Assembly (NCBI RefSeq): GCF_003334305.1
Contig: NZ_QOWS01000001.1
Source: Escherichia coli
Lineage (GTDB): Bacteria; Pseudomonadota; Gammaproteobacteria; Enterobacterales; Enterobacteriaceae
Direction: 5' to 3' (one strand)
DNA length: 64,000 bases
Below are positions 58,801-61,800 of the stretch, piece by piece. Numbering within the stretch: position 1 is the first letter of the stretch; the number at the start of each line of letters is the position of its first letter. A program made the position numbers.

Positions 58801-61800
58801 CACCAGCAGATTCTGATTCATGTATGTCGTACCTGTTTTTGGAATTCTTTCCGCAATAGTTTCATGCAGACTACCTGTAGTACGGGAAGCTGCTTAGAAC
58901 ACTATATATAGGGGGTATGTTTGGGATTCACTGCAAGATAGTGTGAAAATGGCCCTCTTGCAAGTGCATAACTTTGTGGATAACTCAGGAAGGAAAAAGT
59001 GGCTTTCGCGCACCTTAGGTCAGACAAGGTGTCCGGGAAAGTCAATGGGAAGAGAAAAATTTGTTAAAAATAACTGTTCGGCGATTTCTTGAACGGCAGA
59101 ATAGGTTGGATAAATTGATATAGATGGTTTATTAATCTTTTTGCTAATGATTGCAAAAATTGATCTAAGCACGAGTCATCACATAATCTGATGTATCAGT
59201 TGTGGTCAATATATAAGCGAATGTAAGCGATTGTTGATGTCGAAATGGTTGTTTTCTATTCGGTTATTGTTAAATGCGAAGCCATTTTGTTAATTTACCT
59301 TATATTATAAGAAAATTATTCATTACTTTAATTTAGTTTAAATATAACTGGTATCCCTTAAGGTTATTAACTTGAATTATGACGCACTGATATTATTCAT
59401 CAAATAATAACAAAATAGCCATTGCATCGGGTTGGACAATTTACAAAAGAAAGATAACCCATATTGTATAATGCGTTTAAATATGCCGTCTTATATAAAA
59501 TGATGGTCAGATTAATATGCGGATTATCTTTCTACGCAAGGAGTATTTATCTCTACTCCCGTCAATGATTGCATCTCTTTTCTCTGCTAACGGTGTCGCG
59601 GCGGCCATTGATTTATGCCAGGGATATGATATCAAAGCGAGTTGTCACGCCAGCAGGCAAAGCCTTTCAGGCATTACGCAGGACTGGAGTGTCGCCGATG
59701 GGCAATGGCTGGTTTTTTCGGATATGACCAATAATGCCAGCGGAGGAGCCGTATTTTTGCAACAAGGAGCGGAATTTTCACTATTACCAGAAAATGAAAC
59801 TGGAATGACTCTGTTTGCCAATAACACCGTTACAGGAGAATATAATAACGGCGGGGCCATATTTGCTAAAGAAAACTCAACGCTGAATCTTACTGATGTT
59901 ATTTTTTCCGGTAACGTCGCAGGCGGCTATGGTGGCGCAATCTATTCTTCTGGTACTAACGATACTGGTGCCGTCGATTTACGTGTCACTAACGCCATGT
60001 TTCGCAATAACATCGCTAATGATGGCAAAGGTGGCGCAATTTATACCATTAATAATGACGTTTATTTAAGTGATGTTATTTTTGATAACAACCAGGCATA
60101 TACATCAACAAGTTACAGTGATGGCGATGGCGGGGCAATCGATGTTACCGATAATAATAGCGACAGCAAGCATCCTTCAGGTTATACGATAATAAATAAC
60201 ACTGCCTTTACAAATAACACTGCCGAAGGTTATGGCGGGGCGATATATACCAATAGCGCGACGGCTCCCTATCTTATTGATATTTCTGTTGATGACAGCT
60301 ACAGCCAGAACGGCGGCGTGTTAGTGGATGAGAACAACAGCGCAGCAGGCTATGGAGATGGTCCTTCCACTGCGGCGGGTGGCTTTATGTATCTCGGCTT
60401 AAGTGAAGTTACCTTTGATATTGCCGACGGAAAAACGCTGGTTATTGGCAATACAGAGAATGACGGAGCTGTTGACTCTATTGCTAGTACCGGGTTGATC
60501 ACCAAAACAGGTTCCGGCGATCTGGTACTTAATGCAGATAACAATGACTTTACTGGTGAGATGCAGATTGAAAACGGTGAAGTTACCCTGGGTCGCAGCA
60601 ACTCCCTGATGAATGTCGGCGATACGCATTGCCAGGACGATCCGCAAGACTGCTACGGTCTGACGATAGGGAGTATTGATAAGTACCAGAATCAGGCAGA
60701 GCTAAACGTTGGCTCCACCCAACAAACCTTTGTGCACTCATTGACGGGCTTTCAGAATGGCACTTTAAATATCGATGCTGGTGGCAATGTTACTGTTAAT
60801 CAAGGCAGTTTTGCTGGCACCATCGAAGGTGCTGGTCAGCTCACCATTGCGCAAAACGGCAGCTACGTGCTGTCGGGGGCGCAGTCGATGGCGCTAACCG
60901 GCGATATAGTCGTTGATGATGGTGCGGTGCTTTCGCTGGAAGGCGACGCGGCAGATCTTACCGCTCTCCAGGACGATCCGCAGTCGATCGTGTTAAACGG
61001 CGGTGTGCTCGATCTCTCTGATTTCTCCACCTGGCAGAGTGGCACATCATACAACGATGGCCTTGAAGTCAGCGGCAGCAGCGGAACGGTTATCGGCAGT
61101 CAGGATGTGGTAGATCTTGCAGGTGGAAACGATATGCATATCGGCGGTGACGGGAAAGATGGCGTCTACGTGGTGGTCGATGCGGGCGACGGGCAGGTAA
61201 GTCTGGCAAACAATAATAGTTATTTGGGCACAACACAAATCGCCTCCGGTATGCTGGAGGTGAGCGACAACTCACAGCTTGGAGATACCCACTATAACCG
61301 CCAGGTTATCTTTACCGATAAGCAACAAGAAAGCGTGATGGAGATTACTGCCAATGTCGATACTCGCTCTACGACGACTGAGCATGGGCGTGATATTGAA
61401 ATGCGCGCCGACGGTGAAGTGGCAGTTGATGCGGGGGTAGACACGCAGTGGGGCGCTCTGATGGCTGACAGCAGCGGGCAGCATCAGGATGAGGGTAGCA
61501 CATTGACTAAAACGGGGGCGGGTACGCTGGAGCTGACCGCCAGCGGTACAACGCAGTCGGCGGTACGTGTCGAAGAAGGCACCCTGAAAGGCGATGTCGC
61601 GGATATCCTTCCTTATGCTTCGTCACTGTGGGTCGGTGATGGGGCGACGTTCGTTACTGGCGCGGATCAGGATATTCAGTCTATCGATGCTACTTCCAGC
61701 GGCACTATCGATATCAGCGATGGTACGGTTTTGCGTCTGACCGGGCAGGATACTTCCGTCGCCCTTAATGCCTCATTGTTTAACGGCGATGGGACGCTGG

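What the first reader, a model, noticed from the sequence alone, without database searches (positions are those of the whole stretch)
59041..59516. Long AT-rich region upstream of yfaL
The roughly 470 bp upstream of the yfaL start are very AT-rich, with runs such as TTATATTATAAGAAAATTATTCATTACTTTAATTTAGTTTAAATATAAC, unlike the flanking coding sequence. This is the kind of sequence usually bound by H-NS and fits yfaL being a poorly expressed adhesin under standard conditions. The yfaL promoter is not evident from sequence alone.
Basis: inference. Interest (0 to 1): 0.3.

Follow-up and report, generated by a model that had tools for sequence, protein, structure and literature searches.

The report
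Known H-NS-bound AT-rich tract upstream of yfaL
The AT-rich DNA in front of the E. coli adhesin gene yfaL is real, but it is an already catalogued H-NS-bound "promoter island" that came in with yfaL between ubiG and nrdA, so the finding is correct but ordinary.

Summary
Window 59041-59516 has 29.2% G+C against 51.7% for the window, the lowest of any 476-bp stretch.

The interval is the yfaL-proximal two thirds of the 695-bp divergent nrdA-yfaL spacer of E. coli. The K-12 orthologue (97% identical) is one of the 78 published "promoter islands". It maps to window 59032-59565 and is scored as H-NS-bound in all three ChIP data sets considered. It is also marked as an H-NS and RpoD-holoenzyme genomic-SELEX site, with a predicted yfaL promoter, TTGATC-16-CATAAT, at 59160-59187.

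New here: in 73 of 77 other Enterobacterales species scored, ubiG lies directly next to nrdA with a ~353-bp spacer of ~40% G+C. So yfaL plus about 420 bp of AT-rich DNA (59096-59516) is an insertion. Homology to other genera stops at about 59095. Beyond that point, Escherichia species differ by 45-60% yet stay AT-rich.

They are the end of the annotated ORF ypaB and a conserved nrdAB upstream block.

H-NS silencing of yfaL is the best mechanism, but I found no hns-mutant expression data for yfaL. Already known; low interest.

The parts
59096..59516 (.). Island-specific AT-rich DNA upstream of yfaL; the core of the finding. About 29% G+C, falling to 22-25% in 100-200-bp windows.
   Evidence: No homology to the ubiG-nrdA spacer of other Enterobacterales beyond about 59095. 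Identity to other Escherichia species drops from 95-97% to 38-54% at this point. Composition.
59032..59565 (.). Published K-12 'promoter island' yfaL/ypaB (U00096.2 2342143, 534 bp) mapped onto the window; H-NS-bound in all ChIP data sets considered.
   Evidence: PMC3661553, Table 1. The mapping uses yfaL start = 2342191 in U00096.2 (from memory). It is consistent with the 695-bp spacer length and with the HusR and RpoH-SELEX peak positions. My own segmentation gives 59050-59555.
59160..59187 (+). Candidate sigma-70 promoter for yfaL, TTGATC-16-CATAAT. It contains the only GATC of the spacer (59162-59165).
   Evidence: Found by the consensus scan. The same sequence is given as the yfaL 'constitutive promoter' from RpoD-holoenzyme SELEX. 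Intact in the window, K-12 and B2 alleles. No transcription start data.
59467..59472 (+). Perfect TATAAT 45 bp before the yfaL ATG, a proximal -10 candidate. The -35 is poor; TTTACA at 59440-59445 is paired by the scan with TATTGT (59462-59467).
   Evidence: Sequence and scan. CATAAT in the B2 allele. Prediction only.
59107..59116 (+). TGGATAAATT, a 9/10 match to the H-NS high-affinity motif TCGATAAATT; possible nucleation site.
   Evidence: The motif as such is not enriched in the window (57 matches against 58.7 expected).
59501..59562 (.). Two ChIP-exo peaks assigned to yfaL in the GadEWX study (U00096.2 2342146-2342207), straddling the yfaL start codon.
   Evidence: supplementary table of PMC4918353. 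The main text says yfaL is regulated by GadE and GadX, but the table marks it 'N' for differential expression, with no TSS. Coordinates mapped as for the promoter island.
59448..59533 (+). Predicted RNA stem (59448-59466 pairing with 59513-59533) that would enclose the yfaL AUG, plus an inner hairpin (59485-59490 with 59502-59507) over the SD-like GAUGGU.
   Evidence: Fold z-scores are -4.2, -4.0 and -4.3 in three E. coli alleles, though the B2 allele folds in a different register, and not significant in other species. Covariation is inconclusive: 1 compensatory pair, reached by 100/500 shuffles.
59517..63251 (+). yfaL/ehaC, AIDA-I family autotransporter adhesin (1244 aa); its first ~700 bp are also low in G+C (43%).
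59040..59095 (.). AT-rich block conserved upstream of nrdA across Enterobacterales (rc: CGTTCAAGAAATCGCCGAACAGTTATTTTTAACAAATTTTTCTCTTCCCATTGAC). This is ancestral nrd upstream DNA, not part of the insertion.
   Evidence: Alignments A2 and A5.
58949..59092 (+). ypaB, an annotated 47-aa ORF overlapping the nrdAB promoter on the opposite strand.
   Evidence: RefSeq annotation. Its ATG is CTG in the B2 allele, where the ORF is not annotated. A HusR-dependent stationary-phase increase in ypaB mRNA has been reported.
59000..59044 (.). Best 45-bp imperfect inverted repeat upstream of the DnaA boxes. It contains the HusR box CAGACAAGGTGTCCGG (59021-59036). Probably the '45 bp inverted repeat' of the nrd cell-cycle literature (inference).
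   Evidence: (14/22 complementary). [quoted passage not shown]
58935..58983 (-). nrdAB core promoter: DnaA boxes TTATCCACA (58975-58983) and TTATGCACT (58963-58971), -35 TTGCAA (58958-58963), -10 TATCTT (58935-58940).
   Evidence: Sequence, scan. Assignment of -35/-10 rests on established nrd literature, recalled from memory.
58899..58914 (.). NrdR box (CCCCTATATATAGTGT on the nrdA strand), conserved in all genera aligned.
56536..58821 (-). nrdA, the divergent neighbour.

Best explanation
The interval is the regulatory DNA that arrived with the autotransporter adhesin gene yfaL/ehaC when that gene was inserted between ubiG and nrdA in the Escherichia lineage. It is a xenogeneic AT-rich tract of the type catalogued as a 'promoter island': dense in sigma-70-like hexamer pairs on both strands, bound by RNA polymerase, and coated by H-NS.

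Most likely mechanism: H-NS nucleates on the TpA-rich DNA and spreads over roughly 59050-59560. That span covers the candidate yfaL promoters (59160-59187 and the TATAAT at 59467-59472) and the start of the gene. Initiation is blocked or polymerase is trapped, so yfaL stays cryptic in laboratory culture until a counter-silencer acts. GadX/GadE, which give ChIP-exo peaks at the start codon, are candidates.

Because the spacer is divergent, the same H-NS patch ends about 100 bp upstream of the nrdAB -35 region and can also dampen nrdAB.

Shown: the composition, the insertion and its boundary, and the promoter-like density. Shown by others for K-12: H-NS and RNA polymerase binding. Inferred: that H-NS is what silences yfaL, and which promoter is used.
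For: - Composition: 29.2% G+C, the lowest 476-bp stretch of the window, with 2.5 times the window's TpA density.
- Published H-NS occupancy of the K-12 orthologue in all ChIP sets considered, and listing as a promoter island.
- H-NS and RpoD-holoenzyme genomic SELEX sites in the yfaL<>nrdA spacer, with promoter TTGATC-16-CATAAT. That promoter is present at 59160-59187.
- Promoter-like sites: 9 in 421 bp against 3.8 +/- 2.2 in composition-matched shuffles, 4 on + and 5 on -.
- Horizontal origin: 73 of the 77 species scored have ubiG directly next to nrdA, with a 339-546-bp spacer of about 40% G+C. yfaL is present only in Escherichia, one Pseudocitrobacter MAG and, distantly, RIT691.
- Homology to other genera ends at about 59095.
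- Sequence in the tract diverges to 38-54% identity between Escherichia species, while the nrd side stays 95-97% and AT-richness is kept at 22-31% G+C. Composition rather than sequence is maintained.
- yfaL is studied only with an inserted constitutive promoter, and no TSS is known.
- A review states that H-NS represses class Ia RNR.
Against: - I found no direct data that yfaL is de-repressed in an hns or hns stpA mutant.
- All binding data are from K-12, not this strain (97.3% identical).
- The H-NS 10-mer is not enriched; there is a single 9/10 site.
- There is no 10-11-bp phasing of AA/TT that would predict strong intrinsic curvature.
- The yfaL ChIP-exo peaks in the GadEWX study carry no expression change.
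- The distant yfaL homologue in RIT691 has a much less AT-rich upstream region (35-53% G+C), so AT-richness is not obligatory for this gene family.
Confidence: 0.75

Rival explanations
1. [quoted passage not shown] On this reading it serves nrdAB rather than yfaL.
For: The spacer is divergent, and the nrd literature describes upstream Fis, IciA and AT-rich elements and a 45-bp inverted repeat (titles and summaries). Fis-consensus matches lie at 59151-59165 and 59204-59218. Five of the nine promoter-like sites point toward nrdA.
Against: 59096-59516 is absent from the nrdA upstream region of 73 other species, which manage with about 353 bp. It is only 38-54% identical between Escherichia species, while the nrd-proximal DNA is 95-97%. 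That pattern is not expected of a set of specific factor sites for an essential operon. The best 45-bp inverted repeat (59000-59044) and the conserved AT-rich block (59040-59095) lie outside the island-specific DNA. I could not read the primary papers to place their elements.
Confidence: 0.15
2. The tract is a neutral compositional relic. It is AT-rich only because it came from a low-G+C donor, or because unconstrained non-coding DNA drifts toward AT. H-NS binding is then a passive consequence with no selected regulatory role.
For: Very fast sequence divergence. No conserved motifs beyond the 59122-59220 stretch. No H-NS motif enrichment and no curvature signal. IS1 insertion with deletion is tolerated in one strain.
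Against: AT-richness is retained at 22-31% G+C in E. coli alleles, E. albertii and a Pseudocitrobacter MAG despite near-complete sequence turnover. Spacer length is held at 695-702 bp in all of them. Promoter-like sites exceed the composition-matched expectation. The tract is present in 5424 of 5426 complete E. coli genomes.
Confidence: 0.2
3. The yfaL-proximal part encodes a long structured 5' leader, or a small RNA or peptide. It would control yfaL after transcription by hiding the ribosome-binding site and AUG, so low expression would be mainly translational.
For: The -77..+44 RNA folds with z about -4 in three E. coli alleles. In the window and K-12 alleles the AUG and an SD-like GAUGGU sit inside stems; the B2 allele folds differently. 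One compensatory G-C to A-U change was seen. The SELEX-predicted promoter would give a leader of about 320 nt.
Against: No TSS is known, so the RNA may not exist. Covariation does not exceed shuffles (100/500). The B2 allele breaks two outer-stem pairs, and the homologous regions of E. albertii, L005 and L026 are not significantly structured. Rfam finds nothing: the best hit is E=0.86, far below gathering. No ORF of 40 aa or more lies wholly within 59096-59516.
Confidence: 0.1

Closest known systems
'Promoter islands' of E. coli K-12 (Panyukov & Ozoline 2013; Shavkunov 2009), e.g. the appY island
   Same: The K-12 orthologue of this exact tract is entry 2342143_534 yfaL/ypaB in their list of 78. 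It shares all the class features: 300 bp or more, AT-rich, many promoter-like signals on both strands, RNA polymerase and H-NS binding, low output, and a position next to a horizontally acquired gene.
   Different: Nothing essential. This copy is 97% identical to K-12. Unlike most islands, it shares a spacer with an essential housekeeping operon, nrdAB.
H-NS xenogeneic silencing of cryptic E. coli adhesin genes, e.g. ycgV and ydeK, which carry promoter islands in the same table
   Same: An AT-rich upstream tract bound by H-NS in front of a surface adhesin gene that is silent in laboratory culture and studied only when driven by an inserted promoter.
   Different: I found no hns-mutant expression data for yfaL, and no defined counter-silencer. 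ChIP-exo peaks from the GadEWX study lie at the start codon without a measured effect.
nrdAB upstream regulatory region of E. coli (DnaA boxes, NrdR boxes, Fis, IciA, 45-bp inverted repeat, upstream AT-rich sequence)
   Same: Same spacer.
   Different: The bulk of the interval (59096-59516) is not conserved with nrdA in other genera and diverges rapidly within Escherichia.

Membership tests
Promoter island (Ozoline group definition) | A stretch of 300 bp or more with an abnormally high density of promoter-like signals or predicted start points on both strands | tested here: met
   9 sigma-70-like hexamer pairs in 421 bp against 3.8 +/- 2.2 in dinucleotide shuffles, 4 on + and 5 on -. This is a cruder scan than PlatProm. 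The K-12 orthologue is listed by name and coordinates.
Promoter island (Ozoline group definition) | Association with a horizontally acquired gene | tested here: met
   yfaL and the tract are absent from the ubiG-nrdA junction of 73 of 77 Enterobacterales species scored. Homology stops at about 59095.
Promoter island (Ozoline group definition) | RNA polymerase binding with little productive transcription | not testable with these tools
   Literature for K-12 only: an RpoD-holoenzyme SELEX site, a general statement for all islands, no TSS known, and yfaL needing an inserted promoter.
Promoter island (Ozoline group definition) | H-NS occupancy in vivo | not testable with these tools
   Literature for K-12: column H = 'A', bound in all ChIP studies considered, and an H-NS SELEX mark. 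This strain is 97.3% identical.
H-NS xenogeneic silencing target | G+C far below the genome average over hundreds of bp, rich in TpA steps | tested here: met
   29.2% against 51.7% G+C over 506 bp; TpA 0.111 against 0.044.
H-NS xenogeneic silencing target | High-affinity nucleation motif (TCGATAAATT-like) | tested here: inconclusive
   One 9/10 match at 59107-59116 and one 8/10 match. The motif is not enriched window-wide (57 against 58.7 expected).
H-NS xenogeneic silencing target | Intrinsic curvature from phased A-tracts (common but not obligatory) | tested here: not met
   AA/TT periodogram power at 10-11.5 bp is 0.48 against 0.60 +/- 0.27 in shuffles.
H-NS xenogeneic silencing target | De-repression of the adjacent gene when hns is deleted | not tested
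   No data found in the searchable library.
nrdAB upstream activating region | Conserved together with nrdA across Enterobacterales | tested here: not met
   Not met for 59096-59516, which has no homologue in other genera and is 38-54% identical within Escherichia. Met for 59040-59095 only.

The most novel reading that the evidence does not exclude
The insertion of the yfaL AT-rich tract right next to the nrd upstream elements may be what brought the essential nrdAB operon under H-NS control in Escherichia. A horizontally acquired silencer platform would then have been exapted to tune a core DNA-precursor gene. This predicts that nrdAB is independent of H-NS in Salmonella or Citrobacter, which lack the insertion, and in an E. 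coli mutant lacking 59096-59516. The Escherichia-specific layout of the nrd promoter (DnaA boxes upstream of -35 instead of in the 5' UTR) co-occurs with the close yfaL alleles and could be part of the same event.
Probability: 0.25. Interest if true: 0.45.

Novelty: already known. Interest (0 to 1): 0.15.

Why it matters
It matters little as a discovery. The tract is already listed as an H-NS-bound promoter island, and yfaL is already regarded as a cryptic adhesin gene.

The useful additions are practical:
- The boundary of the inserted DNA lies at about 59095.
- Only composition, not sequence, is kept across Escherichia.

This gives a clean design for testing whether H-NS control of the essential nrdAB operon is a by-product of a neighbouring horizontal insertion.

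Tried and rejected
- **Rfam scan of 58600-59800:** only a chance hit (IS605-orfB-I, 16 bits against a gathering score of 94).
- **Intrinsic terminators:** none.
- **H-NS 10-mer enrichment:** none.
- **A-tract phasing or curvature:** none.
- **Direct or inverted repeats at the two ends of the yfaL insertion** (59050-59140 against 63230-63400): one 8-mer only, so no target-site duplication. The ubiG side carries REP-like repeats instead of the ancestral ubiG terminator hairpin.
- **Hidden ORFs:** none of 40 aa or more wholly inside 59096-59516.
- **Leader RNA hairpin over the yfaL AUG:** strong thermodynamically, but covariation on 8 E. coli haplotypes does not exceed shuffles. Kept as a side note, not as the explanation.
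- **Primary nrd papers and a dRNA-seq paper** (Cendra 2013, Sun 1994, Augustin 1994, and the paper I recalled as PMC4288677): not held.
- **Kahramanoglou supplement:** not held.
- **Plasmid hits to the spacer:** 235 places, which turned out to be the known P1/P7 copy of the nrd DnaA-box segment, not the AT-rich tract.

Full report
**What is at the coordinates.** The window is E. coli chromosome. nrdB (55317-56447) and nrdA (56536-58821) are on the minus strand. yfaL/ehaC (59517-63251) is on the plus strand, followed by the end of ubiG on the minus strand. RefSeq also annotates a 47-codon ORF, ypaB, at 58949-59092 on the yfaL strand. The spacer is 100% identical to several human and animal isolates and 97.3% identical to K-12. 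It is present in 5424 of 5426 complete E. coli genomes.

**Observation check.** The quoted AT run is at 59300-59348. The interval has 29.2% G+C against 51.7% for the window, and no other 476-bp stretch of the 64 kb is lower. A likelihood-ratio segmentation places the AT-rich segment at 59050-59555. It ranks second in the window, behind a 1.8-kb low-G+C gene region. TpA steps are 2.5 times the window density.

**What is already published.** Panyukov & Ozoline (PMC3661553) list 78 'promoter islands' in K-12. One is '2342143_534 yfaL(-)/ypaB(-)', flagged as associated with foreign genes and carrying 'A' in the H-NS column, meaning bound in the Grainger, Kahramanoglou and Oshima data sets.
- I mapped it with yfaL start = 2342191 in U00096.2. 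That value is from memory, but it agrees with the 695-bp spacer and with other published peak positions.
- Shimada et al. (PMC3946193) mark the yfaL<>nrdA spacer as both an RpoD-holoenzyme and an H-NS genomic-SELEX site. They give TTGATC-16-CATAAT as the yfaL promoter. That sequence is at 59160-59187 and is intact in three divergent E. coli alleles.
- Seo et al. (PMC4918353) state that yfaL is regulated by GadE and GadX. Their supplementary table lists two ChIP-exo peaks that map to 59501-59562, with no differential expression and no known TSS.
- yfaL phenotypes are obtained only after a constitutive promoter is inserted in front of the gene.
- A review lists H-NS as a repressor of class Ia RNR. 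From memory, Cendra 2013 showed H-NS gel shifts with two nrdAB regulatory fragments; I could not read that paper.

**What I add: origin and boundary.** I scanned one genome per species with the NrdA N-terminus, which returned 80 loci.
- In 73 loci, ubiG ends 339-546 bp (median 353) before nrdA, in the same orientation. That spacer has about 40% G+C and no 150-bp window below 29%. Three truncated loci gave no information.
- yfaL lies between ubiG and nrdA in only four loci: an Escherichia genome labelled E. coli (L005), E. albertii (L006), one Pseudocitrobacter MAG (L026) and, at 54% amino-acid identity, Enterobacteriaceae RIT691 (L068).
- Alignment of the spacers shows that E. coli shares with all other genera a block ending at about 59095 (rc: CGTTCAAGAAATCGCC...TTGAC). 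Beyond it, the other genera have the ubiG terminator hairpin and stop codon, while E. coli has unrelated AT-rich DNA.

So 59096-59516 came with yfaL, whereas 59040-59095 is ancestral and itself AT-rich nrd upstream DNA.

**Divergence.** The same point is a sharp divergence breakpoint.
- Against L005 and E. albertii, the nrd side is 95-97% identical, apart from the 5'UTR/promoter segment in E. albertii (84%). The tract is 38-54% identical, and the first 300 bp of yfaL 67%.
- Within E. coli, the B2 allele is 97.7% identical in the nrd-proximal module but 81-91% in the tract.
- Despite this turnover, the tract keeps 22-31% G+C and the spacer keeps 695-702 bp in all four close lineages.

Composition, not sequence, is what persists.

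**Mechanism.** The tract holds 9 sigma-70-like hexamer pairs against 3.8 +/- 2.2 expected from its own composition, on both strands. This fits the promoter-island description. The best-supported model is H-NS nucleation and spreading over about 59050-59560. That would cover the candidate promoters and the 5' end of yfaL, keep the adhesin gene cryptic, and incidentally border the nrdAB upstream elements.

**Steps not shown.**
- I found no hns-mutant expression data for yfaL.
- The H-NS 10-mer is not enriched; there is one 9/10 site at 59107-59116.
- There is no A-tract phasing.
- The promoter actually used is unknown.

**Rivals.**
The best 45-bp inverted repeat (59000-59044, containing the HusR box at 59021-59036) lies just outside the interval. 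The island-specific 421 bp are absent from other genera and evolve too fast for a set of specific sites.
2. *Neutral relic.* Fast divergence supports this. The retained AT content, the retained spacer length and the excess of promoter-like sites argue against pure neutrality.
3. *Structured leader.* The -77..+44 RNA folds with z about -4 in three E. coli alleles, and in two of them buries the AUG and an SD-like GAUGGU. But covariation is not above shuffles, other species lack the structure, and no TSS is known.

**Comparison and verdict.** This is a member, by name, of a described class. Novelty: already known. Interest is low.

The most novel reading not excluded is that this insertion is what put nrdAB under H-NS control in Escherichia. 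It is testable by deleting 59096-59516 and by comparison with genera that lack the insertion.

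Noticed in passing
window 58944-59075: Phages P1, P7 and SJ46 and about 235 P1-like plasmid records carry an 82-94% identical copy of this segment: the nrd -35, both DnaA boxes, the HusR boxes and most of ypaB. In P1 it lies upstream of hot, which encodes a homologue of the DNA polymerase III theta subunit, and overlaps the ORFs upfN/upfO. The P1 GenBank record already notes the similarity to an E. coli region with two DnaA boxes.
   Followed up: yes
window 58822-59095, against L007, L018, L023 and others (5650-6000): The nrdAB regulatory region comes in two layouts. Escherichia, and the Pseudocitrobacter MAG that has yfaL, carry the DnaA boxes upstream of the -35. Citrobacter, Salmonella, Klebsiella, Enterobacter, other Pseudocitrobacter and RIT691 carry inverted DnaA boxes (TTATCCACAG...TGTGGATAA) in the 5' UTR, downstream of the conserved NrdR box. 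The textbook E. coli layout is therefore lineage-specific and co-occurs with the close yfaL alleles.
   Followed up: partly
window 58949-59092 (ypaB): The ypaB start codon is CTG in the B2-type allele (about 1100 records), where the ORF is not annotated. The ORF overlaps the nrdAB promoter on the opposite strand. This casts doubt on it as a conserved protein gene, although a HusR(YnfL)-dependent stationary-phase increase in its mRNA has been reported.
   Followed up: partly
window 59448-59533: A predicted RNA stem encloses the yfaL AUG, and a small hairpin covers the SD-like GAUGGU (z about -4 in three E. coli alleles, though the B2 allele uses a different register). The perfect TATAAT at 59467-59472 sits in the loop, so a proximal start would escape the long stem. 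There is one compensatory change; covariation is inconclusive.
   Followed up: partly
window 59096 onward, and yfaL 59517-63251, against L005/L006: yfaL and its upstream tract are hypervariable. Other Escherichia species are 78% identical at the amino-acid level with a different N-terminus (MNKKRIV...), and the B2 allele is 85-89% identical in DNA over the first 600 bp. nrdA next door is 96-99% identical. The breakpoint at about 59095 suggests allele replacement by recombination.
   Followed up: partly
L091 2550-3320 (strain UTME-10), corresponding to window ~59480: An IS1 element is inserted about 40 bp upstream of yfaL, with loss of the 5' end of the gene. In another strain (E500002) yfaL is a pseudogene lacking its C-terminus.
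   Followed up: no
window 59162-59165: The only GATC (Dam) site of the 695-bp spacer lies inside the -35 hexamer of the SELEX-predicted yfaL promoter and inside a Fis-consensus match (59151-59165). A second, palindromic Fis-consensus match is at 59204-59218.
   Followed up: no
window 41995-42211: The ais-arnB divergent spacer (27.6% G+C) is as AT-rich as the yfaL tract. It corresponds to another entry of the promoter-island list (2363626_315 ais/arnB).
   Followed up: no
window 23510-25286: The largest AT-rich segment of the window (1.8 kb, 34.7% G+C, with a 100-bp minimum of 16% at about 23536) spans genes and spacers. It is probably another horizontally acquired, H-NS-type region.
   Followed up: no
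window 63252-63378: The yfaL-ubiG convergent spacer consists of REP-like palindromes (e.g. GCCGGATGCGGCGTAAACGCCTTATCCGGCC) in place of the ubiG terminator hairpin seen in genera without yfaL.
   Followed up: partly
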